A stretch of 64,000 nt of DNA from assembly GCA_030390025.1 (NCBI GenBank), contig CM059434.1, positions 95,418,001 through 95,482,000 of the forward strand, read 5' to 3'. Positions 947-34,595 of the stretch are shown one piece after another. Position numbers and translations under genes: made by a program. The notes below the pieces were generated by a model. The model did no database searches. It worked only from the letters and a program-made list of their open reading frames with translations, and was not told where the DNA came from. The DNA comes from Squalus acanthias (taxonomy: Eukaryota). Position 1 is the first letter of the stretch. Every line of letters starts with the position of its first letter.

Positions 947-1300
947 CAGGAATGGTGGTTGTAGAGGTCGTTATAGGCAGACTGGTTGTTGTCCATATTA
1001 TTTGTGGCTCACAGCAAACTCGAATGTGGTAGTCATAACATGACGTGTTCTCCTGCAAAGCACTTTCGGTGGCGATACAGACGAGCCCTGTGTCTTTGTC
1101 GCAGGTCACATTGTCTGTTGATTCCCTTACTGGCCACTCAGGGTAATCGACAAATTGGCACTGAATTTTATTAATTGCATCGGAAGAGGAAGGACACAAT
1201 TTATCACGAATGGGATCCAATAATTCAGAATCGCCCGGGCTTGACGGAGTAGGAGTATGTTCGTTAAACCACGGAGACCATTTGCCATTACACACCTCCT
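947..1300 (-). CDS. Mucin CysD (WxxW) exon, copy 5 in transcript order
   Basis: tttacag|AG GAG GTG TGT ... CCT G|gtaatt; 354 nt, phase 1-1; EEVCNGKWSPWFNEHTP...CYDYHIRVCCEP...TTTIP. Confidence 0.93.
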
Positions 1301-2235
1301 CTGTAAAATAAGAAGTCTGGGCTTAATTAATCTGATGTAAATAGCTAGTTAACAGGAAATAGAAGGAGCAAAATTGCAAAACAACTTTTGTAAATGTGAT
1401 GCCATTTCCATACAGTTGTGTGAGATACTTTATCACATTCTAGTTGTACAATTTCACCACAATGATGTAAAGAATATCAAGCCAGCACAACATTTGACTG
1501 TATGACTGATCGAGCATCAGGTTCTGTTTTAATACTAGTTTTACACTCAGCATTTGAAAGATCAAGGGGTGATTTTCATCTGCTTAGAAGGGGTGAGTGG
1601 CGGAGGGAAAGTAATTTTACAAAAGAACCTACTGCCCAGAGGCTGCACGACTCGATTTTCTAGCGGGCAACAAAACAAAAACTGCCGAGACCTGTACTTG
1701 GGCCCGGAACGCTGAGGAATTGTCCAATCGGGGTTTGCAGCTGAACCTGTACGATGGAGTGAGATGGATCGACTACGTCACTTTCCCATTCCGTGATATG
1801 GTTTTACAACCTCAGTACTGACATTGTGTGATAAATAATTTTGATAACTGAAAACATGTTATTCAATAAGTATATATATCATAATACACCCTTCTCGCTT
1901 GGAGCTTCGCTTGTCGGGGGCCCAGAACAGGAACATGGGCGTGTGAGTTAATGCACATCGCAAAATAATCCGTCAATTGGCGTTAAATTCCTGATTTGCA
2001 CCCGTTCCACTAAACGTTATGACAGGAGCACAATTTCCTAAAAGCTGCCCTATAAGTTACAACATAATGACCAGAGATACAAACATTTCCAAAGCAAACA
2101 ATTAGAATTGAAAATTTGAGGTGTAAAACTGAAAGCCGTGTTTTGTTACCTACTCAATGACAGACCACATGGAGTTAGAAACAATCCACTTGTGGAGACA
2201 GACTTGGTGCAAGGTATAAACCCGTTGTCACTTAC

Positions 2236-2295
2236 CAGTTGTGTAGCTGGTGGTAGACGTAGTGGTAATCGGTGTCACTTCTGGTGAGGTAGTTT
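2236..2295 (-). CDS. Mucin PTS 60-nt exon ETTSPEVTPITTTSTTSYTT
   Basis: ctctatag| ... |gtaagt; phase 1-1; Thr/Ser/Pro-rich. Confidence 0.9.
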
Positions 2296-3776
2296 CTATA
2301 GAGCAGGAAAAACATTTCAACCTGTTACACTGCACGCTGAGGCTCTGAGTCTGTATCAGGTTTAAAAACTTACTTTTCTGCTGAAGGTAGCCAGGCAAAA
2401 AAGTTGCGAAAATGAAATCTATTCTCTTCTAAGTCTACTCAATAAAACGATTTTAGCGGAGAGAAATTACAACCGTTTAATGGTCCTTACATTCAGGACA
2501 TCATTTCCACAATATAAGAGTGGCTGGAATTGTCACATAGATTTGATCGTGCTGTTAATGGAGTTCCTGGAATTTCAGTTTTCAATGTCCAGTGGAAACT
2601 GCTTACAATGGACAGATCCATATTGACCTGATTTCCCAGATCAACAGTGGCTCTGAAAATACTCGGGCAGCAATCCTGGCGATTATACCAGGGTCACAAC
2701 TCCCAGGATCCTCCACAGCTGACCTGACCAGAGTATGTAGGTCAGTGTGAGGTCCTGCCATTTAAATATTATGGCAGGGACCTTCACCACAATATTCAGC
2801 CACATGCCATGATGATGTTTCTATTCAGTGGGAAGAGATATGAAATTGCTGGCCATGCCGACCTCTGCATCAGTTACTTACTTGATATGTGCGTGGGCAG
2901 CATATTGGCTTATAATACAGAAGAGCCCCATTCTAGCCCGGAAGGAGGTTAACAAATAACAGCTATTCTACGTTTGATGGCTTTTCCATACAGACTTCTG
3001 AGAAACTTTATCACATTCTAGTTACGCAATTTCACGATTATAATGTTGACATTTGACTGCATGACTGATCTAGCATCAGGTTAATTTCTTCATGCTAGTA
3101 TTCCACTCATCATTTGAAAGATCGAGGGGAGATTTGCATCTGCCTACAATAGGGTGGGAGAGGGGAGATGACATTCTAAGAAAGAGGCTCCCAACTCGAT
3201 TTTCTAGCGGGCATTGAAACAAAAACTGGCGAGCCCTGTACTTGGGCTGGGAACGGTGAGGAATAGTGCGATAGGGTTTTGCAGCTGAACCTGTATGATG
3301 GAGTGAGATGGATCGGCTACATGACTTTCTCTCATTTCTTGATATGGTTTTACAACCTTAGTGTTGACATGGTGTGACAAATAATTTTGATAACTGAAAA
3401 CGTGTTATTAAATTCGAATATAAAATACATCCTTCTTGCTTGGAGCTTCGCTTGCCGGGGGCACAGAACAGGAACATGGGCGTGTGAGTTAATGCACATC
3501 GCAAAATAATCCTTCAATTAGCGTCAAATTCCTGATTTGCACCCATTCCACTAAATGTTATGACAGGAGCACAAGTTCCTAAAAGCTGCCCTATAAGTTA
3601 CAACATAATGACCAGAAATACAAACATTTCCAAAGTAAACAATTAGAATGGAAAATTTGAGGTGTAAAAATGAAAGCCGTGTTTTGTTACCTCCTCAATG
3701 ACAGACCACACGGAGTTAGAAACAATCCACTTGTGGAGACAGACTTGGTGCAAGGTATAAAACCGCTGTCACTTAC

Positions 3777-3836
3777 CAGTTGTGAAGCTGGTGGTAGACG
3801 TAGTGGTAATCGGTGTCACTTCTGGTGAGGTAGTTT
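3777..3836 (-). CDS. Mucin PTS 60-nt exon ETTSPEVTPITTTSTTSFTT
   Basis: Canonical splice sites; phase 1-1. Confidence 0.9.
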
Positions 3837-5768: not shown

Positions 5769-6122
5769 CAGGAATCGTGATTGTAGAGGTCGTTATAGGC
5801 AGACTGGTTGTTGTCCATATTATTTGTGGCTCACAGCAAACTCGAATGTGGTAGTCATAACATGACGTGTTCTCCTGCAAAGCACTTTCGGTGGCGATAC
5901 AGACGAGCCCTGTGTCTTTGTCGCAGGTCACATTGTCTGTTGATTCACTTACTGGCCACTCAGGGTAATCGACAAATTGGCACTGAATTTTATTAATTGC
6001 ATCGGAAGAGGAAGGACACAATTTATCACGAATGGGATCCAATAATTCAGAATCGCCCGGGCTTGACGGAGTAGGAGTATGTTCGTTAAACCACGGAGAC
6101 CATTTGCCATTACACACCTCCT
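5769..6122 (-). CDS. Mucin CysD exon, copy 4
   Basis: 354 nt, phase 1-1; near-identical to the other CysD exons (PVSES, TTSTITIP variant). Confidence 0.93.
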
Positions 6123-7055: not shown

Positions 7056-7115
7056 CAGGTGTGAAGCTGGTGGTAGACGTAGTGGTAATCGGTGTCACTT
7101 CTGGTGAGGTAGTTT
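7056..7115 (-). CDS. Mucin PTS 60-nt exon ETTSPEVTPITTTSTTSFTP
   Basis: Canonical splice sites; phase 1-1. Confidence 0.9.
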
Positions 7116-8198
7116 CTATAGAGCAGGAAAAACATTTCAACCTGTTACACTGCACGCTGAGGCTCTGAGTCTGTATCAGGTTTAAAAACTTACTTTCTGC
7201 TGCAGGTAGCCAGACAAAAAAGTTGCGAAAATGAAATCTATTCACTTCTAAGTCTACTCAATAAAACTATTTTAGCGGAGAGAAATTACAACCGTTTAAT
7301 GGTCCTTACATTCAGGACATCATTTCCACAATATAAGAGTTGCTGGAATTGTCAGATAGATTTGATCGCACTGTTGATGGAGTTCCTGGGAATATTAGTT
7401 TTCAATGGCCAGTGGAATCTTCTTCCAATGGACAGATCCATATTGACCTCAGCTGTCCAGATAAACAGTGGCTCTGAAAATACTCGGGCAGCAATCCTGG
7501 CGATTATACCAGGGTCACATCGACCAGGGCCCTCCAGAGCTGACCTGACCAGAGTATGAAGGTCAGTGGGAGGTCCTGTCATTTAAATATTGGCCCGAAA
7601 ATTAGACCTAATACGCGAGAGTACGCACTGTGCACTCTCGCATTTTAGGTCTCCAATTGCCGGTTTCCTGCATGCACTGCGCATGCGCGGGAAACCGGCA
7701 CTTTGTGAATTCAAAAGGGGGCGGTTCCTAAGTGAACCGCGTGCGCGCTACAGGCTGTGCGCACGCAGTGCACTTAGTTATTTTTCAGCTTTGAACGCGC
7801 AGGTAAGTGGTGAACATTTTACACAAAAAAAAAGCAGGCGTAGGACCCCCTTTTTACAAGGTAAGTAGTTAATTAAGTGTTACTTTAAATTTTTTTCAAC
7901 AGGTTTATCTTTTTTAGAGACTTTAAAGAAAGGTAAGTTTATTTTTATAACTTTTAAAAAGATTTTAATTTTTTTCAAAAATTTAATTTTTTGTTTAAAG
8001 TGGTTAACTTATTTAACTATACTTATTTTATTAATGTGATGGCTTTTTTAAAAATTTAATTGAGGTTTAGCTGTTCTTTTGTGAGGGTATAGTATTCATA
8101 GCTTTGACAGGTCTTCCTGTCAAAACTATGAATGAAAGATAACAGAAAACGCTGGAAAAACTCAGCAGGCCAGGCAGCATCCGTAGAGAGAGAAAGAG

Positions 8199-8235
8199 AG
8201 TTGACGTTTCAGGTCGATGACCTTTCATCAGAACT
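8199..8235 (-). ncRNA. Minimal type I hammerhead ribozyme motif (inverted copy)
   Basis: Reverse complement reads AGTT CTGATGA A AGGTC ATC GACCT GAAAC GTC AACT. Confidence 0.75.
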
Positions 8236-8501
8236 GGGCGAAGAGAAGAGCAGAACTTCTTCAAGGTAGGCATTCCAAGAAGAGAGGTGGCAGTGAACCA
8301 AACACTAATACGATAGCAAAATACTGCAGATGCTGGAAATCCGAAATAACAACAGAAAACGCTGGAAAAACTCAGCGTTTTCTGTTGTTATTTCGGATTT
8401 CCAGCATCTGCAGTATTTTGCTATCGTATTAGTGTTTGGTTCACTGCCACCTCTCTTCTTGGAATGCCTACCTTGAAGAAGTTCTGCTCTTCTCTTCGCC
8501 C

Positions 8502-8538
8502 AGTTCTGATGAAAGGTCATCGACCTGAAACGTCAACT
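8502..8538 (+). ncRNA. Minimal type I hammerhead ribozyme motif
   Basis: Stem I AGTT/AACT; core CTGATGA; stem II AGGTC/GACCT; GAAA; loop-less palindromic stem III ACGT; GTC cleavage triplet at 8532-8534. Confidence 0.8.
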
Positions 8539-8711
8539 CTCTTTCTCTCTCTACGGATGCTGCCTGGCCTGCTGAGTTTTTCCAGCGTTTTCTGTTGTTA
8601 TTTCGGATTTCCAGCATCTGCAGTATTTTGCTATCGTATTAGTGTTTGGTTCACTGCCACCTCTCTTCTTGGAATGCCTACCTTGAAGAAGTTCTGCTCT
8701 TCTCTTCGCCC

Positions 8712-8748
8712 AGTTCTGATGAAAGGTCATCGACCTGAAACGTCAACT
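8712..8748 (+). ncRNA. Minimal type I hammerhead ribozyme motif (tandem copy)
   Basis: Identical to 8502-8538, 210 nt downstream. Confidence 0.8.
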
Positions 8749-9510
8749 CTCTTTCTCTCTCTACGGATGCTGCCTGGCCTGCTGAGTTTTTCCAGCGTTT
8801 TCTGTTGTTATTTCGGATTTCCAGCATCTGCAGTATTTTGCTATCGTATGAATGAAAGATGGTGTGCTGCCATTGGCTCTAACTGAATCACGTGATCCCA
8901 GAGCTCGCACGAACTAATTGCGTCTCTGGGTCATGCAAGTACTGCACAGCTGCATGTGGGACTGGCCTTGAAACTAAAGTTCGTGTGGGCCCGGAGGAAA
9001 AAGGTAGGCGCGCAGTGAGATATCGCGGGGAAGCCTTACCCCCGCGCGAACACTCACTGTTTAATTTCTGGGCCATTATGGCAGGAACCTTCACCACAAT
9101 ATTCAGACACATGCCCTGCTGCTGTTTCTATTCAGTGGGAAGAGATATGAAATTGCTGGCCATGCCCACTGATGCATCAGTTACTTTCTTGATATGTGTG
9201 TGAGCAGAATATTGTCTTGTAATGCAGAAGAGCCCGATGCTAGCCTGGAAGGAGATGAACACATAACAGCTATTCTAAGTTTGATGGCTTTTCCATACAG
9301 ATTGTGAAGTACTTTATAACATTCTAGTTGCACAATTTCACAATAATGGTACAAAGAATATCAAGCCAGCACAACATTTGACTGTATGACTGATCTAGCA
9401 TCAGGTTGTTTTATCATACTAGTTTTACACTCAGCATTTGAAAGCGCAAGGGGTAATTTTCATCTCCTTACGAGGGCGGGAGTGGCGGAGGGAAAGTAAT
9501 TCTACAAAAG

Positions 9511-9945
9511 GGTCGACTAGGCCTGTATTCACTAGAGTTTAGAAGAATGAGAGGGGATCTCATTGAAACGTATAAAATTCTGACAGGGCTAGACAGACTG
9601 GATGCAGGGAGGATGTTTCCCCTGGCTGGTGGGTCTAGAACGAGGGGTCACAGTCTCAGGATATGGGGTAGGACATTTAGGACTGAGATGAGGAGAAATT
9701 TCTTCACTCAGAGGGTGGTGAACCTGTGGAATTCTCTACCACAGAAGGCTGTGGAGACCATGTCACTGAATATATTTAAGAAGGAGATAGATATATTTCT
9801 GGACACAAAAGGCATCAAGGGGTATGGGGAGGGAACGGGAATATGTTATTGAGATAGAGGATCAGCCCTGATCATGTTGAATGGCGGAGCAGACTCGAGG
9901 GGCCGAATGGCCTACTCCTGCTCCTATTTTCTGTTCTATGTTTCT
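9511..9945 (+). mobile_element. CR1 LINE 3' fragment, copy B1
   Basis: MRGDLIETYKIL...RRNFFTQRVVNLWNSLP, then 3'UTR with ttctatg tail. Confidence 0.9.
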
Positions 9946-10543
9946 AGAACCTACTGCCAAGAGGCGGCAAGACTTGATTTTCTAGTGGGCATCGTAAAAA
10001 ATGTTGAGCCCGGTACTTGGGCTCGGAACGGTGAGAAATAGTCCAAAAGAGTTTTGCAGCTGAAGCTGTATGATGGGGTGAGATTGATCGGCTACATGAC
10101 TTTCTATCATTCCTTGATATTTCCTTGACATTGTGTGACAAATAATTTTGATAAGTGCAAACGTGTTATTTAATAAGATTATCTATTATAATACACCCTT
10201 CTCGCTTGGAGCTTCGCTTGTCGGGGTTACATAACAGGAATATGAGCGTGGAAATTAATGCACATCGCAAAATAATCCGTCAATTGGCGCCAAATTCCTG
10301 ATTTGCGCCCATTCCGCTAAACATTATGTCAAGAGCACAATTTCCTAAAAGCTGCACTATAAGTTACAACATAATGACCAGAGATTCAAAAATTTCCGAA
10401 GCAAACAATTTGAAAGGAAAATTTGTGATGTAAAAATGAAAGCCGTGTTTTGTTAACTACTCAATGACAGACCACATGGAGTTAGAAAACAATCCACCTC
10501 TGGAGACAGACTTGGTGCAAGGTATAAAACCGCTGTCACTTAC

Positions 10544-10603
10544 CAGTTGTGTAGCTGGTGGTAGACGTAGTGGTAATCGGTGCTTCTTCTGGTACTGTAG
10601 TTT
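10544..10603 (-). CDS. Mucin PTS 60-nt exon ETTVPEEAPITTTSTTSYTT
   Basis: Canonical splice sites; phase 1-1. Confidence 0.9.
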
Positions 10604-11603: not shown

Positions 11604-11957
11604 CAGGAATCGTGATTGTAGAGGTCGTTATAGGCAGACTGGTTGTTGTCCATATTATTTGTGGCTCACAGCAAACTCGAATGTGGTAGTCATAACATGA
11701 CGTGTTCTCCTGCAAAGCACTTTCGGTGGCGATACAGACGAGCCCTGTGTCTTTGTCGCAGGTCACATTGTCTGTTGATTCACTTACTGGCCACTCAGGG
11801 TAATCGACAAATTGGCACTGAATTTTATTAATTGCATCGGAAGAGGAAGGACACAATTTATCACGAATGGGATCCAATAATTCAGAATCGCCCGGGCTTG
11901 ACGGAGTAGGAGTATGTTCGTTAAACCACGGAGACCATTTGCCATTACACACCTCCT
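11604..11957 (-). CDS. Mucin CysD exon, copy 3
   Basis: 354 nt, phase 1-1; WSPW motif, 8 Cys. Confidence 0.93.
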
Positions 11958-12891: not shown

Positions 12892-12951
12892 CAGTTGTGT
12901 AGCTGGTGGTAGACGTAGTGGTAATCGGTGTCACTTCTGGTGAGGTAGTTT
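12892..12951 (-). CDS. Mucin PTS 60-nt exon ETTSPEVTPITTTSTTSYTT
   Basis: Canonical splice sites; phase 1-1. Confidence 0.9.
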
Positions 12952-13714
12952 CTATAGAGCAGGAAAAACATTTCAACCTGTTACACTGCACGCTGAGGCT
13001 CTGAGTCTGTATCAGGTTTAAAAACTTACTTTCCTGTTGCACATAGCCGAGCACAAAAATTGTGAAATGAAATCTTTCAGATCTATCGAAGTCTACCCAA
13101 TAAAGATATTTTAGTGGATAAACAAGACAATTAATATGCAGACATACATTCAGTACATCATTTCCACACTATAAGAGTAGGTGGAATTGTCAAGCAGATT
13201 TAATGGAGTTCCTGGAAATACAAGTTTTCAATGTCCACTGGAAACTTCTTCCAATGGACAGATCCATATTGACCTCAGCTGTCCAGATAAACAGTGGCTC
13301 TGAAAATACTCGGGCAGCAATCCTGGCGATTATACCAGGGTCACATCGACCTGGGCCCTTCACCACAATATTCAGACACATGCCATGCTGCTGTTTCTAT
13401 TCAGAGGGAAGAGATATGAAATTGCTGGTCATGCCGACCTCTGCATCAGTTACTTTCTTGATATGTGTGTGGACAGCATAGTGGCTTAAAATACAGAAGA
13501 GCCCGATGCTAGCCCGGAAGGAGGTTAACGCATAACAGCTATTCTAGGTTTGATGGCTTTTCCAAACTGACTTGTGCAATACTTTATCTCATTATGGTTA
13601 TAAAATTTCACGATTTTAGTGAAAAGAATATCAAGCCAGCATAACATTTGACTGCATGACTGGTCGAGCATCAGGTTGTTTTATCATACTCGTATTTCTT
13701 TCATCATTTGAAAG

Positions 13715-14403
13715 AACATAAGAACATAAGAAATAGGAGCAGGAGTAGGCCATTTGGCCCCTCGAACCTGCTCCGCCATTCAATAAGATCATGGCTGATT
13801 TTCTACCTCAACTCCACCTTCCTGTTCCTGCACAATCCCCATATTCCTTGATTCCCTTAATATCCAAAAATCAATTGATCTCTGTCTTGAATATAGTCAA
13901 CGACTGAGCCTCCACAGCCCTCTGGGGTAGAGAATTCCAAAGATTCACCACCCTCTGAGTGAAGAAATTTCTCCTCATCTCAGTCCTAAATGGCCGACCC
14001 CTTATTTTGAGACTGTGACCCCTGGTGCTAGACTCCCCAGCCAGGGGAAACATCCTCCCTGCATCTTCCCTGTCAAGCCCTGTAAGAATTTTGTATGTTT
14101 CAATGAGCTCACCGCTCATTCTTCTAAACTCTAGGGAATATAGGCCTTGTCTACTCAATCTCTCCTCATACGATAATCCCCCCATCCCAGGAATCAGTCT
14201 GGTGAAACTTCGTTACACTCCCTTTATGGCAAGTATATCCTTCCTTAGGTAAAGAGACCAAAACTGTACACAATACTCCAGGTGTGGTCTCACCAGGGCC
14301 CTATATAATTGCTGTAGATGTCTTTACTCTTATACTCAAATCCTCTTGTAATAAAGGCCAACATACCATTTGCATTACTAATTGCTTGCTGTACCTGCAT
14401 GTT
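13715..14403 (-). mobile_element. CR1 LINE 3' fragment, copy C1
   Basis: MGGLSYEERLSRQGLYSLEFRRM...FFTQRVVNLWNSLP; (aagaacat)n tail on the + strand. Confidence 0.9.
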
Positions 14404-15069
14404 AAGGAGATTAGGAAGTGATTTTTAGCTGCCTGTGAGGGGAGATGAAATTGTGAAAAAGAATCTACTACTCAGAGGCCGCCCGACTCAATTTTCCAGC
14501 AGGCATCGAAACAAAAACTGGCGAGTCCTGTACCTAGTCTCAGAACGGTGAGGAATAGTCCGATAGGGTTTTGCAGCTGAACCAGTAGCATGGAGAGAGA
14601 TGGATCGGCTACATGACTTTCTCTCATTCCTTGATATGCTTTACATACTCAGTTTAAATATTGTCTGACAAATCATTTTGATAACTGAAAATGTGTTATT
14701 TAGTAATATATATTTTAACACATCCTTCTCGCTTGGAGGACCGCACAGCAGGGGCACATCATAGGAATAGAAGCGTGGAAGTTAATGCACATCTCAAAAT
14801 AATCCTTCAATTGGCGTCAAATTCCTGATTTGCACCCATTCCACTAAACGTTATGTCAGGAGCACAAGTTCCTAAAAGCTGCCCTATAAGTTACAACATA
14901 ATGACCAGAGATACAAACATTTCCAAAGCAAACAATCAGAATTGAAAATTTGGGGTTTAAAACTGAAAGCCGTGTTTTGTTACCTCCTCAATGACAGACC
15001 ACATGGAGTTAGAAACAATCCACTTGTGGAGACAGACTTGGTGCAAGGTATAAAACCGCTGTCACTTAC

Positions 15070-15129
15070 CAGTTGTGTAGCTGGTGGTAGACGTAGTGGT
15101 AATCGGTGTCACTTCTGGTGAGGTGGTTT
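15070..15129 (-). CDS. Mucin PTS 60-nt exon ETTSPEVTPITTTSTTSYTT
   Basis: Canonical splice sites; phase 1-1. Confidence 0.9.
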
Positions 15130-20404: not shown

Positions 20405-21230
20405 CTATAGAGCAGGAAAACATTTCAACCTGTTACACTGCACGCTGAGGCTCTGAGTCTATATCAGGTTTAAAAACTTACTTTCCTGTTGCACATAGCC
20501 GAGCACAAAAATTGTGAAATGAAATCTTTCAGATCTATCGAAGTCTACTCAATAAAATTATTTCAGTGGATAAACAAGACAATTAATATACGGCCATACT
20601 TTCAGTACATCATTTCCACACTATCAGAGTTGGTGGAATTGTCAAGCAGATTTAATGGAGTTCCTGGAAATACAAGTTTTCAATGTCCACTGGAAACTTC
20701 TTCCAATGGACAGATCCATATTGACCTCAGCTGTCCAGATAAACAGTGGCTCTGAAAATACTCGGGCAGCAATCCTGGCGATTATTCCAGGGTCACACCT
20801 CCCAGGGCCCTCCAGAGCTGAGCTGACCAGAGTATGTCGGTCAGTAGGAGGTCCTGTCATTTAAATATTATGGCAGGGCCCTTCACCACAATATTCAGAC
20901 ACATGCCCTGCTGCTGTTTCTATTCAGAGGGAAGAGATATGAAATTGCTGGTCATGCCGACCTCTGCATCAGTTACTTTCTTGATATGTCTGTGGTCAGC
21001 ATATTGGCTTATAATACACAAGAGTCCGATGCTAGCCCGGTTAACGCATAACAGCTATTCTAGGTTGGATGGCTTTTCCAAGCTGACTTGTGCAGTACTT
21101 TATCACATTATGGTTATAAAATTTCACGATGTTAGTGAAAAGAATATCAATCCAGCATAACATTTGACTGCATGACTGGTCGAGCGTCAGATTGTTTTAT
21201 CATACTCGTATTTCATTCATCATTTGAAAG

Positions 21231-21912
21231 AACATAAGAAATAAGAGCAGGAGTAGGCCATTTGGCCCCTTGAACCTGCTCCGCCATTCAATAAGATCAT
21301 GGCTGATTTTCTACCTCAACTGCACTTTCCTGTTCCTGCACTATCCCCATATTCCTTGATTCCCTTAATATCCAAAAAACAATTGATCTCTGTCTTGAAT
21401 ATAGTCAACGACTGAGCCTCCACAGCTCTCTGGGGTAGAGAATTCCAAAGATTCACCACCCTCTGAGTGAAGAAATTTCTCCTCATCTCAGTCCTAAATG
21501 GCCGACCCCTTATTTTGAGACTGTCACCCCTTGTTCTAGACTCCACAGCTAGGGGAAACATCCTCCCTGTATCTTCCCTGTCAAGCCCTGTAAGAATTTT
21601 GTATGTTTCAATGAGCTCATTGCCCATTCTTCTAAACTCTAGAGAATATAGGCCTAGTCTACTCAATCTCTCCTCATACGACAATCCCCCCATCCCAGGA
21701 ATCAGTCTGGTGAAACTTCGTTACACTCCCTTTATGGCAAGTATATCCTTCCTTAGGTAAAGAGACCAAAACTGTACACAATACTCCAGGTGTGGTCTCA
21801 CCAGGGCCCTATATAATTGCTGTAGATGTCTTTACTCTTATACTCAAATCCTCTTGTAATAAAGGCCAACATACCTTTTGCATTACTAATTGCTTGCTGT
21901 ACCTGCATGTTA
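21231..21912 (-). mobile_element. CR1 LINE 3' fragment, copy C2
   Basis: Same junctions as 13715-14403. Confidence 0.9.
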
Positions 21913-22563
21913 AGGAGATTAAGGAGGTGATTTTTAGCTGCCTGTGAGGGGAGATGAAATTGTGCAAAAGAATCTACTACCCAGAGACCGCCCGACTCAA
22001 TTTTCTAGCAGGCATCGAAACAAAAACTGGCGAGCCCTGTACCTAGTCTCAGAACGGTGAGGAATAGTCCGATAGGGTTTTGCAGCTGAACCTGTAGCAT
22101 GGAGAGAGATGCATCGGCTACATGACTTTCTCTCATTCCTTTACATACTCAGTTTAAATATTGTGTGACAAATCATTTTGATAACTGAAAACGTGTTATT
22201 TAATATTTTAATACATCCTTCTCGCTTGGAGGACCGCACAGCGGGGGCACATCACAGGAATAGAAGCGTGTGAGTTAATGCACATCTCAAAATAATCCAT
22301 CAATTGGCGTCAAATTCCTGATTTGCGCCCATTCCGCTAAACGTTATGTCAACAGCACAATTTCCTAAAAGCTGCCCTATAAGTTACAACATAATGACCA
22401 GAGATTCAAAAATTTCCGAAGTAAACAATTTGAAAGGAAAATTTGTGATGTAAAAATGAAAGCCGTGTTTTGTTACCTACTCAATGACAGACCACATGGA
22501 GTTAGAAAACAATCCACCTCTGGAGACAGACTTGGTGCAAGGTATAAAACCGCTGTCACTTAC

Positions 22564-22623
22564 CAGTTGTGTAGCTGGTGGTAGACGTAGTGGTGATCGG
22601 TGTTTCTTCTGGTACTGTAGTTT
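22564..22623 (-). CDS. Mucin PTS 60-nt exon ETTVPEETPITTTSTTSYTT
   Basis: Canonical splice sites; phase 1-1. Confidence 0.9.
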
Positions 22624-24106
22624 CTATAGAGCAGGAAAACATTTCAACCTGTTACACTGCACACTGAGGCTCTGAGTCTACATCAGTTTTAAAAACTTAC
22701 TTTTCTGCTGCATGAAGCCGAGCATAAAATTACGAAAATTATATCTATTCACTTCTATCTTAGTCTCCCAATAAAATTATTTTATCAGAGAGAGAATACA
22801 ACCACATAATGGCCCTTACATTCAGGACATCATTTCATCAAGTATAAGAGTGGCTGGAATTGTCACATAGATTTGATCGTGCTGTTAATGGAGTTCCTGG
22901 AATTTCAGTTTTCAATGTCCAGTGGAAACTGCTTACAATGGACAGATCCATATTGACCTGATTTCCCAGATCAACAGTGGCTCTGAAAATACTCGGGCAG
23001 CAATCCTGGCGATTATACCAGGGTCACAACTCCCAGGATCCTCCACAGCTGACCTGACCATAGTATGTAGGTCAGTGTGAGGTCCTGCCATTTAAATATT
23101 ATGGCAGGGACCTTCACCACAATATTCAGCCACATGCCATGATGATGTTTCTATTCAGTGGGAAGAGATATGAAATTGCTGGCCATGCCGACCTCTGCAT
23201 CAGTTACTTACTTGATATGTGCGTGGGCAGCATATTGGCTTATAATACAGAAGAGCCCCATTCTAGCCCGGAAGGAGGTTAACAAATAACAGCTATTCTA
23301 AGTTTGATGGCTTTTCCATACAGACTTCTGAGAAACTTTATCACATTCTAGTTACGCAATTTCACGATTATAATGTTGACATTTGACTGCATGACTGATC
23401 TAGCATCAGGTTAATTTCTTCATGCTAGTATTCCACTCATCATTTGAAAGATCGAGGGGAGATTTGCATCTGCCTACAATAGGATGGGAGAGGGGAGATG
23501 ACATTCTAAGAAAGAGGCTCCCAACTCGATTTTCTAGCGGGCATTGAAACAAAAACTGGCGAGCCCTGTACTTGGGCTGGGAACGGTGAGGAATAGTGCG
23601 ATAGGGTTTTGCAGCTGAACCTGTATGATGGAGTGAGATGGATCGGCTACATGACTTTATCTCATTTCTTGATATGGTTTTACAACCTTAGTGTTGACAT
23701 TGTGTGACAAATAATTTTGATAACTGAAAACGTGTTATTAAATTCGAATATAAAATACATCCTTCTTGCTTGGAGCTTCGCTTGCCGGGGGCACAGAACA
23801 GGAACATGGGCGTGTGAGTTAATGCACATCGCAAAATAATCCTTCAATTGGCGTCAAATTCCTGATTTGCACCCGTTCCACTAAATCTTATGTCAGGAGC
23901 ACAAGTTCCTAAAAGCTGCCCTATAAGTTACAACATAATGACCAGAAATACAAACATTTCCAAAGTAAACAATTTGAAAGGAAAATTTGAGGTGTAAAAA
24001 TGAAAGCCGTGTTTTGTTACCTACTCAATGACAGACCACACGGAGTTAGAAACAATCCACTTGTGGAGACAGACTTGGTGCAAGGTATAAAACCGCTGTC
24101 ACTTAC

Positions 24107-24166
24107 CAGGTGTGAAGCTGGTGGTAGACGTAGTGGTAATCGGTGTCACTTCTGGTGACGTAGCTT
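24107..24166 (-). CDS. Mucin PTS 60-nt exon EATSPEVTPITTTSTTSFTP
   Basis: Canonical splice sites; phase 1-1. Confidence 0.9.
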
Positions 24167-26099: not shown

Positions 26100-26453
26100 C
26101 AGGAATGGTGGTTGTAGAGGTCGTTATAGGCAGACTGGTTGTTGTCCATATTATTTGTGGCTCACAGCAAACTCGAATGTGGTAGTCATAACATGACGTG
26201 TTCTCCTGCAAAGCACTTTCGGTGGCGATACAGACGAGCCCTGTGTCTTTGTCGCAGGTCACATTGTCTGTTGATTCCCTTACTGGCCACTCAGGGTAAT
26301 CGACAAATTGGCACTGAATTTTATTAATTGCATCGGAAGAAGAAGGACACAATTTATCACGAATGGGATCCAATAATTCAGAATCGCCCGGGCTTGACGG
26401 AGTAGGAGTATGTTCGTTAAACCACGGAGACCATTTGCCATTACACACCTCCT
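26100..26453 (-). CDS. Mucin CysD exon, copy 1 in transcript order
   Basis: 354 nt, phase 1-1; PVRES variant. Confidence 0.93.
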
Positions 26454-27388: not shown

Positions 27389-27448
27389 CAGGTGTGAAGC
27401 TGGTGGTAGACGTAGTGGTAATCGGTGTCACTTCTGGTGAGGTAGTTT
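27389..27448 (-). CDS. Mucin PTS 60-nt exon ETTSPEVTPITTTSTTSFTP
   Basis: Canonical splice sites; phase 1-1. Confidence 0.9.
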
Positions 27449-28357
27449 CTATAGAGCAGGAAAAACATTTCAACCTGTTACACTGCACGCTGAGGCTCTG
27501 AGTCTGTATCAGGTTTAAAAACTTACTTTTCTGCTGAAGGTAGCCAGGCAAAAAAGTTGCGAAAATGAAATCTATTCTCTTCTAAGTCTACTCAATAAAA
27601 CTATTTTAGCGGAGAGAAAATACAACCGTTTAATGGCCCTTACATTCAGGACATCATTTCCACAATATAAGAATGGCTGGAATTGTCAGATAGATTTGAT
27701 CGCACTGTTAATGGAGTTCCTGGGAATATTAGTTTTCAAGGCCAGTGGAATCTTTTTCCAATGGACAGATCCATATTGACCTCAGCTGTCCAGATAAACA
27801 GTGGCTCTGAAAATACTCGGGCAGCAATCCTGGCGATTATTCCAGGGTCACATCGACCAGGGCCCTCCAGCGCTGACCAGACCAGAGTGTGTAGGTCAGT
27901 GGGAGGTCCTGTCATTTAAATATTATGGCAGGAACCTTCACCACAATACTCAGACACATGCCCTGCTGCTGTTTCTATTCAGTGGGAAGAGATATGAAAT
28001 TGCTGGCCATGCCCACTGATGCATCAGTCACTTTCTTGATATGTGTGTGAGCAGAATATTGCCTTCTAATGCAGAAGAGCCCGATGCTAGCCTGGAAGGA
28101 GATGAACACATAACAGCTATTCTAAGTTTGATGGCTTTTCCATACAGATTGTGAAGTACTTTATAACATTCTAGTTGCACAATTTCACAATAATGGTACA
28201 AAGAATATCAAGCCAGCACAACATTTGACTGTATGACTGATCTAGCATCAGGTTGTTTTATCATACTAGTTTTACACTCAGCATTTGAAAGCGCAAGGGG
28301 TGATTTTCATCTCCTTATGAGGGCGGGAGTGGCGGAGGGAAAGTAATTCTACAAAAG

Positions 28358-28793
28358 GGTCGACTAGGCCTGTATTCACTAGAGTTTAGAAGAATGAGAG
28401 GGGATCTCATTGAAACGTATAAAATTCTGACAGGGCTCGACAGACTGGATGCGGGGAGGATGTTTCCCCTGGCTGGTGGGTCTAGAACGAGGGGTCACAG
28501 TCTCAGGATATGGGGTAGGACATTTAGGACTGAGATGAGGAGAAATTTCTTCACTCAGAGGGTGGTGAACCTGTGGAATTCTCTACCACAGAAGGCTGTG
28601 GCGGCCATGTCACTGAATATATTTAAGGAGATAGATATATTTCTAGAAACAAAAGGCATCAAGGGGTACGGGGAGGGAACGGGAATATGTTATTGGGATA
28701 GAGGATCAGCCATGATCATGTTGAATGGCGGAGCAGACTCGAGGGGCCGAATGGCCTTCTCCTGCTCCTATTTTTCTATGTTTCTATGTTTCT
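28358..28793 (+). mobile_element. CR1 LINE 3' fragment, copy B3
   Basis: Same junctions as 9511-9945. Confidence 0.9.
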
Positions 28794-29391
28794 AGAACCT
28801 ACTGCCAAGAGGCGGCAAGACTTGATTTTCTAGTGGGCATCGTAAAAAATGTTGAGCCCGGTACTTGGGCTCGGAACGGTGAGAAATAGTCCAAAAGAGT
28901 TTTGCAGCTGAAGCTGTATGATGGGGTGAGATTGATCGGCTACATGACTTTCTATATATCCTTGATATTTCCTTGACATTGTGTGACAAATAATTTTGAT
29001 AAGTGCAAACATGTTATTTAATAAGATTATCTATTATAATACACCCTTCTCGCTTGGAGCTTCGCTTGCCGGGGTTACATAACAGGAATATGAGCGTGGA
29101 AATTAATGCACATCGCAAAATAATCCGTCAATTGGCGTCAAATTCCTGATTTGCGCCCATTCCGCTAAACGTTATGTCAAGAGCACAATTTCCGAAATGC
29201 TGCCCTATAAGTTACAACATAATGACCAGAGATTCAAACATTTCCGAAGCAGACAATCACAAAGGAAAATTTGTGATGTAAAAATGAAAGCCGTGTTTTG
29301 TTACCTACTCAATGACAGACCACATGGAGTTAGAAAACAATCCACCTCTGGAGACAGACTTGGTGCAAGGTATAAAACCGCTGTCACTTAC

Positions 29392-29451
29392 CAGTTGTGT
29401 AGCTGGTGGTAGACGTAGTGGTAATCGGTGTTTCTTCTGGTACTGTAGTTT
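29392..29451 (-). CDS. Mucin PTS 60-nt exon ETTVPEETPITTTSTTSYTT
   Basis: Canonical splice sites; phase 1-1. Confidence 0.9.
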
Positions 29452-30284
29452 CTATAGAGCAGGAAAACATTTCAACCTGTTACACTGCACGCTGAGGCTC
29501 TGAGTCTATATCAGGTTCAAAAACTTACTTTCCTGTTGCACATAGCCGAGCACAAAAATTGTGAAATGAAATCTTTCAGATCTATCGAAGTCTACTCAAT
29601 AAAGTTATTTTAGTGCATAAACAAGACAATTAATATACGGCCATACATTCAGTACATCATTTCCACACTATAAGAGTTGGTGGAATTGTCAAGCAGATTT
29701 AATGGAGTTCCTGGAAATACAAGTTTTCAATGTCCACTGGAAACTTCTTCCAATGGACAGATCCATATTGACCTCAGCTGTCCAGATAAACAGTGACTCT
29801 GAAAATACTCGGGCAGCAATCCTGGCGATTATTCCAGGGTCACATCGACCAGGGCCCTCCAGAGCTGACCTGACCAGAGTGTGTAGGTCAGTGGGAGGTC
29901 CTGTCATTTAAATATTATGGCAGGGCCCTTCACCACAATATTCAGACACATGCCCTGCTGCTGTTTCTATTCAGAGGGAAGAGATATGAAATTGCTGGCC
30001 ATGCCGACCTCTGCATCAGTTACTTTCTTGATATGTGTGTGGACAGCATATTGGCTTATAATACACAAGAGCCTGATGCTAGCCCGGAAGGAGGTTAACG
30101 CATAACAGCTATTCTAGGTTTGATGGCTTTTCCAAACTGACTTGTGCAATACTTTATCACATTATGGTTATAAAATTTCATGATTTTAGTGAAAAGAATA
30201 TCAAGCCAGCATAACATTTGACTGCATGACTGGTCGAGCATCAGGTTGTTTTATCATACTCGTATTTCATTCATCATTTGAAAG

Positions 30285-30953
30285 AACGTAAGAACATAAG
30301 AAATAGGAGCAGGAGTAGGCCATTTGGCCCCGCGAGCCTGCTCCGCCATTCAATAAGATCATGGCTGATTTTCTACCTCAACTCCACCTTCCTGCACTAT
30401 CCCCATATTCCTTGATTCCCTTAATATCCAAAAATTAATTGATCTCTGTCTTGAATATAGTCAACGACTGAGCCTCCACAGCTCTCTGGGGTAGAGAATT
30501 CCAAAGATTCATCACCCTCTGAGTGAAGAAATTTCTCCTCATCTCAGTCCTAAATGGCCGACCCCTTATTTTGAGACTGTGACCCCTTGTTCTAGACTCC
30601 ACAGCCAGGGGAAACATCCTCCCTGCATCTACCCTGTCAAGCCCTGTAAGAATTTTGTGTTTCAATGAGCTCATTGCCCATTCTTCTAAACTCTAGAGAA
30701 TATAGGCCTAGTCTACTCAATCTCTCCTCATACGACAATCCCCCCATCCCAGGAATCAGTCGTTACACTCCCTTTATGGCAAGTATATCCTTCCTTAGGT
30801 AAGGAGACCAAAACTGTACACAGTACTCCAGGTGTGGTCTCACCAGGGCCCTATATAATTGCTGTAGATGTCTTTACTCTTATACTCAAATCCTCTTGTA
30901 ATAAAGGCCAACATACCATTTGCATTACTAATTGCTTGCTGTACCTGCATGTT
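30285..30953 (-). mobile_element. CR1 LINE 3' fragment, copy C3
   Basis: Same junctions as 13715-14403. Confidence 0.9.
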
Positions 30954-31613
30954 AAGGAGATTAAGGAGGTGATTTTTAGCTGCCTGTGCGGGGAGATGAA
31001 ATTTTATAAAAGAATCTACTACTCAGAGGCCGCCCAACTCTAGTGGACATCGAAACAAAAACTGGCGAGTCCTGTACCTAGTCTCAGAACGGTGAGGAAT
31101 AGTCCGATAGGGTTTTGCAGCTGAACCTGTAGCATGGAGAGAGATGGATCGGCTACATGACTTTCTCTCATTCCTTGATATGCTTTACATACTCAGTTTA
31201 AATATTGTGTGACAAATCATTTTGATAACTGAAAACGTGTTATTTAATAATATATATTTTAATACATCCTTCTCGCTTGGAGGACCACTCAGCGGGAGCA
31301 CATCACAGGAATAGAAGCGTGTGAGTTAATGCACATCTCAAAATAATCCATCAATTGGCGTCAAATTCCTGAATTGCATCACACACCGCTAAAATTTGTC
31401 AGGAGTAAAATTTCCTAAAAGCTGCCCTATAAGTTACAACATAATGACCAGAGATACAAACATTTCCAAAGCAAACAATTAGAAAGGAAAATTTGAGATG
31501 TAAAAATGAAAGCTGTGTTTTGTTACCTACTCAATGACAGACCACATGGAGTTAGAAAACAATCCACCTCTGGAGACAGACTTGGTGCAAGGTATAAAAC
31601 CGCTGTCACTTAC

Positions 31614-31673
31614 CAGGTGTGAAGCTGGTGGTAGACGTAGTGGTAATCGGTGTTTCTTCTGGTGACGTAGTTT
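31614..31673 (-). CDS. Mucin PTS 60-nt exon ETTSPEETPITTTSTTSFTP
   Basis: Canonical splice sites; phase 1-1. Confidence 0.9.
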
Positions 31674-33060
31674 CTATAGAGCAGGAAAAACATTTCAACC
31701 TGTTGTACTGCACGCTGAGGCTCTGAGTCTGTATCAGGTTTAAAAACTTACTTTTCTGCTGCATGAAGCCGAGCACAAAATTACGAAAATTGTATCTATT
31801 CAATTTTATCCTAGTTTCTCAATAAAATTATTTTAGCGGAGAGAGAATACAACCATATAATGGCCCTTAGATTCATAACATCATTTCATCAAGTATAAGA
31901 GTGGCTGGAATTGTCACATAGATTTGATCGTGCTGTTAATGGAGTTCCTGGAATTTCAGTTTTCAATGGCCAGTGGAATCTTCTTACAATGGACAGATCC
32001 ATATTGACCTGAGTTCCCAGATAAACAATGACTCTGAAAATACTCGGGCAGCAATCCTGGCGATTATTCCAGGGTCACACCTCCCAGGATCCTCCACAGC
32101 TGACCTGACCAGAGTATGTCGGTCAGTGGGAGGTCCTGTCAGTTAAATATTATGGCAGGGACCTTCACCACAATATTCAGACACATGCCCTGCTGCTGTT
32201 TCTATTCAGTGGGAAGAGATATGAAATTGCTGGCCATGCCGACTGATGCATCGGTCACTTTATTGATATGTGTGTGGGCAGCATATTGGCTTATAATGCA
32301 GAAGAGCCCGATGCTAGCCCGGAAGGAGATGAACACATAACAGCTATTCTAAGTTTGATGGCTTTTCCATACAGATTGTAAACTTCTTTATCACATTCTA
32401 GTTACACAATTTCACGATTATAATGTTGACATTTGACTGCATGACTGATCTAGCATCAGGTTATTTTCTTCATGCTAGTATTCCACTCATCATTTGAAAG
32501 ATCATGGGGAGATTTGCATCTGCCTACATTAGGGTGGGAGAGGGGAGATGACATTCTAAGAAAGAGGTTTCCAAACACGATTTTCTAGCGGGCATTGAAA
32601 CAAAAACTGGCGAGCCCTGTACTTGGGCTGGGAATGGAGAGGAATAGTGCGATAGGGTTTTTCAGCTGAACCTGTATGATGGAGTGAGATGGATCGGCTA
32701 CATGACTTGCTCTCATTTCTTGATATGGTTTTACAACCTTAGTGTTGACATTGTGTGACAAATAAATGAAAACATATTATTTAATAAGAATATATATTAT
32801 AATACACCTTTCTCACTTGGAGCTTCGCTTGCCGGGGACACAGAACAGGAACATGGGCGTGTGAGTTAATGCACATCGCAAAATAATCCTTCAATTGGCG
32901 TTAAATTCCTGATTTGCACCCATTCCACTAAACGTTATGACAGGAGCACAAGTTCCTATAAGCTGCCCTATAAGTTACAACATAATGACCAGAGATACGT
33001 TAGAAACAATCCACTTGTGGAGACAGACTTGGTGCAAGGTATAAACCCGCTGTCACTTAC

Positions 33061-33120
33061 CAGGTGTGAAGCTGGTGGTAGACGTAGTGGTAATCGGTGT
33101 CACTTCTGGTGAGGTGGTTT
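33061..33120 (-). CDS. Mucin PTS 60-nt exon ETTSPEVTPITTTSTTSFTP
   Basis: Canonical splice sites; phase 1-1. Confidence 0.9.
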
Positions 33121-34535
33121 CTATAGAGCAGGAAAAACATTTCAACCTGTTACACTGCACGCTGAGGCTCTGAGTCTGTATCAGGTTTAAAAACTTACTT
33201 TTCTGCTGCACATAGCCGAGCACAAAAATTGTGAAAATTAAATCTATTCACTTGTGTCTAAATCTACTCAATAAAATTATTTGAGCTGACAGAGAATACA
33301 ACAAGTTAATGGCCTTTACAGTAAGAACATCAGATAGATTTGATCGTGCTGTTAATGGAGTTCCTGGGAATATGAGTTTTCAATGTCCAGTGGAATCTTC
33401 TTCCAATGGACAGATCCATATTGACCTCAGCTGTCCAGATAAACAGTGGCTCTGAAAATACTCGGGCAGCAATCCTGGCGATTATTTCAGGGTCACATCG
33501 ACCAGGGCCCTCCAGAGCTGACCTGACCAGAGTGTGTAGGTCAGTGGGAGGTCCTGTCATTTGGCAGGGACCTTCACCACAATATTCAGACACATGCCCT
33601 GCTGCTGTTTCTATTCAGTGGAAATAGAAATTAACCTGCTGGCCATGCCGAATTCTGCATCGGTCACTTTCTTGATATGTGTGTGGACAGCATATTGGCT
33701 TATAATACACAAGAGCCCGATGCTAGCCCGGAAGGAGGTTAACGCATAACAGCTATTCTAAGTTTGCTGACTTTTCCAAACTGACTTGTGCAGTACTTTA
33801 TCACATTCTAGTTACACAATTTCACCACAATGATGTAAAGTATATCAGGCCAGCACAACATTTGATTGTATGACTGATCTAGCATCAACATGTTTTATCA
33901 TGTTAGTTTTACACTCAGCATTTGAAAGATCAAGGGGTGATTTTCATCTGCTTCCAAGGGCGGCAGTGGCGGAGGGAAAGTAATTCAAAAAAGAACCGAC
34001 TACCCCGAGGCCGCCTGACTCGATTTTCTACCAGGCATTGAAACAAAAGCTGGCGAGCCCTTGGGCTGGGAACGGTGAGGAATAGTGCGATAGGGTTTTG
34101 CAGCTGAACCTGTATGATGGGGTGAGATGGATCGGCTGCATGACTTTCTCTCATTCCTTGATATGGTTTTACAACCTCAGTGTTGACATTGTGTGACAAA
34201 TAAATGAAAACGTGTGTTTAATAAGAATATATATTATAATACACCCTTCTCGCTTGGAACTTCTCTTGCCGGGGGCACAGAACAGGAATAAGGGCGAGGA
34301 TGTTAATGCACATTGCAAAATAATATGTCAATTGGTGACAAATTCCTGATTTGTATAACACTATAATGACCAGAGATACAAACATTTCCAAAGCAAACAA
34401 TAAGAATGGAAAATTTGAGATGTAAAAATGAAAGCCGTGTTTTGTTACCTCCTCAATGACAGACCACACGGAGTTAGAAAACAATCCACTTGTGGAGACA
34501 GACTTGGTGCAAGGTATAAAACTGCTGTCACTTAC

Positions 34536-34595
34536 CAGTTGTGTAGCTGGTGGTAGACGTAGTGGTAATCGGTGTTTCTTCTGGTGACGTAGTTT
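34536..34595 (-). CDS. Mucin PTS 60-nt exon ETTSPEETPITTTSTTSYTT (first of the array)
   Basis: Canonical splice sites; phase 1-1. Confidence 0.9.

What the first reader, a model, noticed from the sequence alone, without database searches (positions are those of the whole stretch)
947..34595. Modular mucin: each 20-aa PTS repeat and each CysD domain is its own frame-symmetric exon
Seen: fifteen 60-nt exons and five 354-nt CysD exons, all phase 1-1 with intact AG/GT sites. Transcript order is 5-C-4-C-2-C-2-C-2-C, continuing past base 1. Known: human MUC2, MUC5AC and MUC5B encode most of the PTS/CysD region in one very large central exon, although multi-exon PTS regions do occur (e.g. MUC19, frog integumentary mucins). 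Inference: any subset of cassettes can be skipped, duplicated or lost without a frameshift. CysD spacing (2 versus 4 repeats between domains) and hence gel cross-link density could therefore be tuned by alternative splicing and by allelic copy number.
Basis: partly seen in the sequence, partly recalled or inferred. Interest (0 to 1): 0.8.

Follow-up and report, generated by a model that had tools for sequence, protein, structure and literature searches.

The report
Shark mucin built from exon cassettes
A shark mucus gene of the MUC19 branch builds its repetitive middle from small in-frame exons, one sugar-carrying repeat or one CysD domain each, so its length and domain number likely vary by duplication and possibly by splicing, a design already seen in bird and frog mucins.

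Summary
Observation confirmed. There are 15 exons of 60 nt and 5 CysD exons of 354 nt, all phase 1-1, in the order 5-C-4-C-2-C-2-C-2-C on the minus strand. The array runs on past base 1 to 21 + 6 in all. Splice signals are conserved beyond chance, and public contigs join the exons at the predicted sites.

The gene is a complete shark gel-forming mucin. Its D3 region groups with MUC19, not MUC2/5, yet it has CysD domains and a fourth VWD. It sits in a cluster of about 9 paralogues. One neighbour has the same design (97 + 10 exons); another has a single 3.2-kb PTS exon. A seventh, terminal CysD is not symmetric.

The array most likely grew by duplication of exon-plus-intron units. Regulated tuning is unshown: 3 of 3 assignable junctions fit adjacent exons. 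Automatic orthologue models and one paralogue junction do hint at in-frame variation.

One repeat per exon, with the same splicing idea, is published for chicken Muc13, and multi-exon repeats for frog MucXS. The scan earlier noted a similar exon array in another gene of this genome. Verdict: new variant of a known kind, moderate interest.

The parts
63668..63819 (-). TIL'/E' exon of the D' region (the gene's 5' exons lie beyond the window, ATG at about +98347)
60943..61081 (-). D3 exon (start of VWD3)
59989..60093 (-). D3 exon
57999..58187 (-). D3 exon
54028..54267 (-). D3 exon (end of VWD3, start of C8); Pfam VWD; 94% to a sevengill-shark model
53777..53933 (-). D3 exon (C8-3)
40507..40632 (-). 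D3 exon (TIL3); weak donor, boundary set by best fit to the orthologue
39980..40121 (-). D3 exon (TIL3/E3)
37945..37976 (-). last D3 exon, ends in phase 1 and sets the frame of the array
36801..36851 (-). unique 51-nt phase 1-1 PTS exon (predicted)
35552..35608 (-). unique 57-nt phase 1-1 PTS exon (predicted; similar peptide in a catshark model)
27389..34595 (-). five 60-nt PTS exons: 34595-34536, 33120-33061, 31673-31614, 29451-29392, 27448-27389
26100..26453 (-). CysD exon 1 (354 nt, phase 1-1)
18346..24166 (-). four 60-nt PTS exons: 24166-24107, 22623-22564, 20404-20345, 18405-18346
17058..17411 (-). CysD exon 2
12892..15129 (-). two 60-nt PTS exons: 15129-15070, 12951-12892
11604..11957 (-). 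CysD exon 3
7056..10603 (-). two 60-nt PTS exons: 10603-10544, 7115-7056
5769..6122 (-). CysD exon 4 (identical to exon 3)
2236..3836 (-). two 60-nt PTS exons: 3836-3777, 2295-2236
947..1300 (-). CysD exon 5; Pfam Mucin2_WxxW 1-88/88, E=1e-16; spliced joints at both ends in public contigs. Beyond base 1 follow 6 more 60-nt exons, CysD exon 6, two 30-nt and one 54-nt exon, the terminal CysD exon, a fourth VWD and cystine-knot-type exons (to about -45435)

Best explanation
This is the central domain of a spliced shark gel-forming mucin gene of the MUC19 branch, written as 21 one-repeat exons and 6 one-CysD exons that all share phase 1-1 and that likely multiplied by unequal crossing-over and gene conversion of exon-plus-intron units. 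Shown: the exons, their frame, conserved splice signals, splicing at the predicted sites, duplicated exon-plus-intron blocks, and the D1-D2-D'D3 head and fourth-VWD/cystine-knot-type tail exons. Inferred: phase symmetry is the filter that lets any gain, loss or skip leave a full-length, polymer-competent protein. The usual transcript likely includes all exons, giving seven CysD domains, the first six spaced by 64 or 104 aa of O-glycosylatable linker. Most variation in CysD number is likely allelic and between species, with in-frame skipping as a by-product. By analogy with human MUC2, the CysD domains would add non-covalent contacts to the gel.
For: Exon anatomy and controls. Spliced joints at the predicted sites, with 3 of 3 organism-A contigs fitting adjacent pairs. 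Duplicated blocks of 2-9.5 kb at 89-97% identity that include introns. Small-exon units whose flanks are only 78-98% alike still keep the same donor in 21 of 21. CysD variants are shared in mosaic fashion among copies. The head is stop-free over 20 + 9 exons and the tail exons are located in order. D3 identity is 61-62% to two mammalian MUC19 versus 46-47% to one MUC2 and one MUC5AC. Trees put shark rows with MUC19 at 99/100 and SH-aLRT 100 with the window row. Orthologue models of other sharks have similar 19-20-aa repeats and 1-3 copies of the repeated CysD, so number differs between species. The neighbouring paralogue has homogenised its own array separately: 97 small + 10 CysD exons, CysD diversity 0.0006.
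Against: No second haplotype or individual of this gene was available, so allelic variation of this gene is not shown. Only four junction contigs cover the array, so frequent skipping cannot be excluded. Automatic models of orthologues list many in-frame isoforms, some lacking CysD, which fits a larger role for splicing. No true MUC6 row was in the trees, and synteny with LRRK2 could not be established. The shark CysD has 8 cysteines where human CysD has five disulfides (PMC3195396 abstract), and 26-31% identity, so its self-association may differ.
Confidence: 0.65

Rival explanations
1. One reading: the cassettes are a regulated splicing device. Cells choose how many repeats and CysD domains to include, and so set the cross-link density of mucus by tissue or condition.
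For: All 1024 junction codons are stop-free. The 13 sawshark isoform models compared with X1 each differ by a single in-frame deletion (20 to 494 aa); 6 of 13 lack one or more CysD, two of them a non-repeated CysD. Fifteen of 35 listed catshark models differ in steps of about 19 aa, and 3 of 6 epaulette-shark models lack a CysD. In paralogue B, one run joins a 48-nt exon found once in the fetched gene to a unique exon 11.5 kb downstream. Precedent: frog FIM-C.1 is called polymorphic through alternative splicing (PMC7177656, passage), and chicken MUC2 has one in-frame event in its PTS region (PMC3549977, passages).
Against: 3 of 3 assignable junctions of this gene fit adjacent exons. Donors are the consensus GTAAGT in 21 of 21, with no weak sites that would mark optional exons. 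The paralogue-B junction appears in 1 of 4 runs at about 40% of the downstream contig's depth, as a heterozygous allele would. Among the 15 joints shown (43 not shown), none skips B's unique exons or terminal CysD. The isoforms are automatic models whose read support I could not see, and repeats invite mis-mapping. The chicken MUC2 study found no splicing change on infection (PMC3549977, passage).
Confidence: 0.22
2. The array is a frozen by-product: it arose by duplication but is now fixed, invariant between individuals and always fully spliced, so modularity has no present effect.
For: Many units have old flanks (78-90% identity) and carry separate insertions. No variant junction of this gene was seen in organism-A runs.
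Against: CysD exons differ at only 5 of 354 sites and two are identical, which points to recent exchange. The organism-B contig pairs variants found in no adjacent pair of the assembly. Paralogue B shows a junction absent from the assembly order.
Confidence: 0.1
3. The array is an assembly artefact or a set of unspliced pseudo-exons.
For: Tandem repeats are error-prone in assemblies, and exact copy number rests on one assembly.
Against: Copies differ by 3-11% over kilobases, the stretch has no N, splice signals are selectively conserved, spliced joints exist in 4 of 4 runs from 2 studies, and orthologue models show the same modules.
Confidence: 0.03

Closest known systems
MUC19 / spiggin clade of gel-forming mucins (Lang et al. 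2016, PMC4948705; passages read)
   Same: D3 groups with mammalian MUC19. The paper reports three Muc19 paralogues in the elephant shark and a fourth VWD in some spiggins. Tandem expansion as in stickleback spiggin (PMC4989455; passages).
   Different: Has seven CysD domains and a fourth VWD. The paper names CysD as the mark of MUC2/MUC5 types and says mammalian Muc19 lacks the fourth VWD. No Mucin2_WxxW match in the mouse and reedfish Muc19-like models scanned (2 of 2; these models may be incomplete).
Chicken Muc13 (Lang et al. 2006, PMC1552070; passages read)
   Same: One 20-aa PTS repeat per exon, nearly identical exons, and the same proposal that splicing could vary the length within an individual.
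   Different: Membrane-bound SEA mucin with no CysD and no gel-forming domains.
Xenopus tropicalis MucXS/Otogl (Dubaissi et al. 2018, PMC5789918; section 5, passages, one supplement searched)
   Same: Gel-forming skin mucin with a multi-exon central domain that alternates PTS repeats (34) and Cys-rich modules (39).
   Different: Its Cys-rich modules are stated not to be typical CysD. Exon phase and one module per exon are not given in what I read.
Human MUC2, MUC5AC, MUC5B (PDB 8oer, 8ov0, 6tm6; PMC3195396 abstract; PMC11912381 passages)
   Same: Same overall domain order with CysD inside PTS and a fourth VWD. CysD sequence and fold match. MUC5AC H3 alleles already vary in PTS and CysD number.
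   Different: The mammalian central domain is typically one long exon (PMC5789918); D3 is only 46-47% identical; human CysD has 10 cysteines, this one 8.
Chicken MUC2 (Jiang et al. 2013, PMC3549977; section 13 and passages)
   Same: PTS region with four CysD spread over many exons; one in-frame splice variant reported.
   Different: MUC2 clade; 69-aa repeat; exon structure there is unresolved because of assembly gaps.
Automatic RefSeq/UniRef models of sharks and rays named mucin-2-like, mucin-19-like, mucin-6-like or mucin-5AC-like (P0001, P0037, P0038, P0039)
   Same: Orthologues at 90-92% in D3 (P0037, P0001), with the same modules and multiple predicted isoforms.
   Different: Names are inconsistent, and I found no paper describing their exon design.

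Membership tests
Gel-forming mucin | Signal peptide plus three N-terminal VWD-C8-TIL units | tested here: met
   Stop-free spliced model from a hydrophobic N-terminus through D3, aligned exon by exon to P0037, which has Pfam VWD x4, C8 x4, TIL x3. No signal-peptide predictor was run.
Gel-forming mucin | Central PTS domain (Thr+Ser at least 40%, Pro above 5%) | tested here: met
   Small exons are 65-75% P/T/S; total PTS is short, about 700 aa.
Gel-forming mucin | C-terminal cystine knot | tested here: inconclusive
   Terminal Cys-rich exons match the orthologue's last 100 aa, but Pfam gave no cystine-knot match for P0037 at E<=0.01.
Gel-forming mucin | O-glycosylation, secretion, disulfide polymers and gel formation | not testable with these tools
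   Needs protein work.
MUC19 clade | N-terminal VWD region groups with MUC19 against MUC2 and MUC5 | tested here: met
   D3 only: 99/100 on a long branch, SH-aLRT 100 with the window row. No true MUC6, ovomucin or otogelin row was included.
MUC19 clade | No CysD and no fourth VWD (mammalian MUC19) | tested here: not met
   Seven CysD domains and fourth-VWD exons are present. It is therefore a MUC19-clade paralogue, not a mammalian-type MUC19.
MUC19 clade | Neighbour of LRRK2 and CNTN1 (recalled for mammals) | tested here: inconclusive
   The best COR hit is LRRK1 on another contig, and LRRK2 was not located. The nearest gene found upstream is laminin-beta-like, from the 150 longest of 592 frames scanned after dropping satellite frames.
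MUC2/MUC5 clade | D3 groups with MUC2 or MUC5 | tested here: not met
   better MUC2/5-like D3 exons lie on contig C658.
CysD domain (Pfam PF13330) | Profile match, WxxW motif and fold | tested here: met
   61.6 bits against a cut-off of 22.4, full length; PDB hits are only mucin CysD chains; model pLDDT 70, top 8 fold hits all mucin CysD-containing, TM 0.39-0.52.
CysD domain (Pfam PF13330) | Ten cysteines in five disulfides | tested here: not met
   Eight invariant cysteines in 5 of 5 shark CysD types aligned.
CysD domain (Pfam PF13330) | Non-covalent self-association | not tested
   The complex predictor was not available.
Alternatively spliced cassette-exon array | Exons symmetric in phase and length | tested here: met
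   32 of 32 central exons; the terminal CysD exon is not symmetric.
Alternatively spliced cassette-exon array | Skipped isoforms exist in RNA of one individual | tested here: inconclusive
   0 of 3 assignable junctions need a skip; the paralogue-B junction may be a skip or an allele.

The most novel reading that the evidence does not exclude
Sharks and rays have an expanded MUC19-branch family that keeps the full MUC2/MUC5 domain set (CysD and fourth VWD). In some members the folded CysD module is itself a splice cassette, so a single gene sets the number and spacing of gel cross-linking domains transcript by transcript and tissue by tissue. Paralogues side by side with one giant PTS exon or one repeat per exon would show how the two designs interconvert from one CysD-plus-PTS exon.
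Probability: 0.25. Interest if true: 0.72.

Novelty: new variant of a known kind. Interest (0 to 1): 0.45.

Why it matters
It corrects the family placement of a set of inconsistently named shark mucins and shows CysD and a fourth VWD inside the MUC19 branch. That bears on the ancestral gel-forming mucin of jawed vertebrates. One cluster holds both ways of growing a mucin domain: repeats inside one exon (gene C, and the terminal exon of this gene) and duplication of whole exons (this gene and gene B). It is a natural comparison for how mucin gene architecture evolves. The array is short (central coding region about 4.4 kb) and its exons carry variants, so one long-read cDNA run could test the proposal made in 2006 for chicken Muc13 that splicing varies mucin length within an individual, here extended to a cross-linking domain.

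Tried and rejected
No RNA holder on record was listed (four runs guessed to be RNA, shares 0.05-0.07); I used them only after laying them. Contig depths were not used to rank genes. The 1300/3777 joint looks like a skip of exon 2295, but its letters fit adjacent pairs elsewhere in the array (12951 to 11957, or 7115 to 6122), so it was rejected as skip evidence. The 461/3507 joint is explained by identical exon ends. The organism-B CysD-to-small-exon contig matches no adjacent pair and has a base seen in none of the 6 copies, so it could not be assigned.

A homologue search with the CysD alone among 55-175-aa proteins found nothing (uninformative). My first guess that the D3 hits at C10:73.5 and 74.2 Mb are MUC2/5/6 was not borne out: they are ambiguous. 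The LRRK2 synteny test failed to locate LRRK2.

A candidate 57-nt exon at -22095 was left out of the model because P0037 has no counterpart; a catshark model has a similar peptide, so it may be real. The degenerate first CysD of the sawshark model has no separate copy in this gene. First-pass D3 boundaries were wrong, so the window row is absent from that tree and was added (24 rows, 20 of the 43 left out for speed). The human MUC19 cloning paper was not held, and a phrase search for the frog FIM-B.1 splicing paper found no text; both are recalled only.


Full report
OBSERVATION. The window is part of a 134.5-Mb contig of a 3.7-Gb genome. The nearest D3 relatives are sawshark (92%) and sevengill-shark (90%) models, so the organism is a shark; I did not determine it further. 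On the minus strand lie fifteen 60-nt exons and five 354-nt exons at the stated coordinates and in the stated order, all phase 1-1. With neighbouring DNA the central region reads u-u-5S-C-4S-C-2S-C-2S-C-2S-C-2S-C-S-m-2S-m-S-u. That is 21 small exons (S), 6 CysD exons (C), two 30-nt exons (m) and three unique exons (u); joined in order they give 1202 codons without a stop, and 0 of 1024 possible junction codons is a stop. Linkers between the six repeated CysD domains are 104, 64, 64, 64 and 64 aa. The pattern is not chance: 15 matches in the window against 0 in 100 of 100 shuffles. Splice signals are more conserved than the exon or the intron around them: diversity 0.006 in the 30 nt before the small exon, 0.058 in the exon, 0.08-0.10 in nearby intron; 2 of 33 versus 67 of 155 variable columns.

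SPLICING. Four public runs, guessed to be RNA, from two studies were laid on window 900-4000. Cover fell only on the exons. Three contigs join a small exon to CysD across GT..AG, and one joins CysD to a small exon, all at the predicted bases. Using the variant letters, the three organism-A contigs each fit an adjacent pair of the assembly. The organism-B contig fits none and carries a base absent from all six copies, so it cannot be assigned. The exons are therefore real, and no skip in this gene is shown. The test is weak: four contigs, and contigs drop rare forms.

THE GENE. Exon-by-exon alignment to orthologue models gives a stop-free head from the ATG (about +98347) through D1, D2, D' and D3. 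After the array comes a divergent seventh CysD in a 755-nt exon of phase 1-0 that also holds about 20 copies of a 6-aa repeat, then fourth-VWD and terminal Cys-rich exons to about -45435. The tail exons were located but not joined. The repeated domain is a CysD by Pfam, by PDB sequence hits and by a moderate-confidence model whose top eight fold hits are mucin CysD-containing chains. It has 8 cysteines, where human MUC2 CysD has five disulfides (PMC3195396, abstract).

FAMILY. D3 is 61-62% identical to mammalian MUC19 and 46-47% to MUC2 and MUC5AC. Shark and ray rows join MUC19 at 99/100 in a 43-row tree and at SH-aLRT 100 in a 24-row tree with the window row; no true MUC6 row was available. 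The gene thus belongs to the MUC19 branch but has the domain set of MUC2/5. Lang et al. 2016 (PMC4948705, passages) report three Muc19 paralogues in the elephant shark and a fourth VWD in some spiggins, and tie CysD to MUC2/MUC5 types. I did not see their supplement or online domain tables, which may already show CysD in shark Muc19. Synteny was inconclusive.

SURROUNDINGS. Nine D3 exons at 60-100% identity lie on C10 between 92.1 and 95.5 Mb. I examined 6 of the 9: this gene, genes B and C, and three whose best hits are the shark orthologue or MUC19. Gene B (plus strand, about 270-420 kb downstream) has the same design with different repeats: 97 exons of 48-63 nt, 10 nearly identical 342-nt CysD exons and a divergent terminal CysD. 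Gene C, tail to tail with the window's gene, has CysD plus about 935 aa of PTS in one exon of about 3.2 kb. All these CysD exons begin at a phase-1 acceptor. The simplest reading (inference) is one ancestral CysD-plus-PTS exon that grew either by repeats inside the exon or by duplication of exons with their introns.

MECHANISM. Shown: exon-plus-intron blocks of 2-9.5 kb are duplicated at 89-97% identity, and CysD variants are shared in mosaic fashion. Inferred: unequal crossing-over and gene conversion drive the array, and phase symmetry lets every product keep the tail needed for polymers. This predicts allelic and species differences in CysD number; orthologue models do differ, with 1-3 copies of the repeated CysD. 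Evidence for in-frame variation is indirect. All 13 sawshark isoform models differ from the longest by one in-frame deletion, and 6 of 13 lack a CysD. Catshark models (15 of 35 listed) differ in steps of about 19 aa. These are automatic models whose read support I could not see. In gene B, run X2 alone joins a 48-nt exon that occurs once in the fetched gene to a unique exon 11.5 kb downstream, at depth 51 against 124 for the downstream contig; this is either a skip or a heterozygous allele. Against regulated splicing: uniformly strong donors, adjacent-pair junctions, and no skip of B's unique exons among the 15 joints shown (43 were not shown). The step from CysD number to gel mesh rests on human MUC2 CysD dimers (PMC3195396, abstract). 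A 2025 paper notes that CysD functions are largely unexplored and that MUC5AC CysD1 was not seen in its filaments (PMC11912381, passages).

PRIOR WORK. Chicken Muc13 has one 20-aa repeat per exon, and its authors proposed length control by splicing (PMC1552070, passages). Frog MucXS is a gel-forming mucin with a multi-exon centre alternating PTS and Cys-rich repeats that are not typical CysD (PMC5789918; section 5, passages, one supplement). Chicken MUC2 spreads PTS and four CysD over many exons with one in-frame variant (PMC3549977; section 13, passages). Frog FIM-C.1 is called polymorphic by alternative splicing (PMC7177656, passages). Human MUC5AC alleles vary in CysD number (PMC11912381, passage). 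Shark skin mucus holds mucin-2-like and mucin-5B-like proteins by mass spectrometry (PMC10707392, passages); I did not link them to this gene. PMC11765562 and PMC4989455 were read as passages. The many-exon structure of human MUC19 and a paper on splicing of FIM-B.1 repeats are recalled, not seen. Searches found no description of CysD as a symmetric exon or of this shark cluster; the library lacks most subscription papers.

VERDICT. The feature is real and well read. The principle and the splicing idea are known. What is new is a MUC19-branch mucin with CysD as a frame-symmetric exon, in a cluster that holds both gene designs. New variant of a known kind; interest 0.45; regulated tuning remains an open, directly testable possibility.

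Noticed in passing
G000:C10:95082000-95179500 (gene B; L024-L034, L041): Paralogous MUC19-branch mucin with 97 small phase 1-1 exons and 10 near-identical CysD exons. Its 3' unique exons are bridged in contigs of 3 of 4 runs. Run X2 shows a junction not in the assembly order (skip or allele).
   Followed up: partly
G000:C10:95316808-95320000 (gene C; L048, L010): Neighbouring paralogue whose CysD and about 935-aa PTS lie in one exon of about 3.2 kb, the mammal-like design, tail to tail with the window's gene.
   Followed up: partly
G000:C10:92.1-95.5 Mb: At least nine MUC19-like D3 exons, a larger cluster than the three paralogues reported for the elephant shark; PTS design of six members not examined.
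   Followed up: partly
G000:C10:95394124-95394878 (L003): The terminal CysD exon holds about 20 copies of an 18-nt repeat inside the exon, so the gene uses both exon duplication and an in-exon repeat.
   Followed up: yes
window:947-1300 and paralogues: All five shark CysD types aligned have 8 cysteines rather than the 10 of human CysD.
   Followed up: partly
window:41700-53450 (13-kb intron inside D3): Interrupted plus-strand open frames that look by eye like envelope and integrase pieces of two LTR-type elements; no Pfam match at E<=0.01 for the six frames scanned. Described only.
   Followed up: partly
window:8373-8849 and 8140-8370: A perfect 210-bp tandem (2.3 copies) of a short interspersed-repeat-like piece, next to an inverted copy, in the intron between small exons 10603 and 7115.
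   Followed up: no
window:34972-35156: A 19-bp minisatellite, 9.7 copies, just upstream of the first small exon.
   Followed up: no
G000:C10:95541500-95556700 (L016-L018): A satellite of an 11-bp unit, about 15 kb long, 25 kb upstream of the start codon; it gives very long open frames on both strands without being a gene as far as seen.
   Followed up: partly
G000:C10:95.69-95.76 Mb (L069-L075): The nearest upstream gene found is a laminin beta-type gene on the plus strand (Laminin_N, laminin EGF, Laminin IV type B).
   Followed up: partly
P0138 (sawshark orthologue model): Has an extra, degenerate CysD exon right after D3 that the window's gene lacks, a sign of gain or loss of CysD cassettes between species.
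   Followed up: partly
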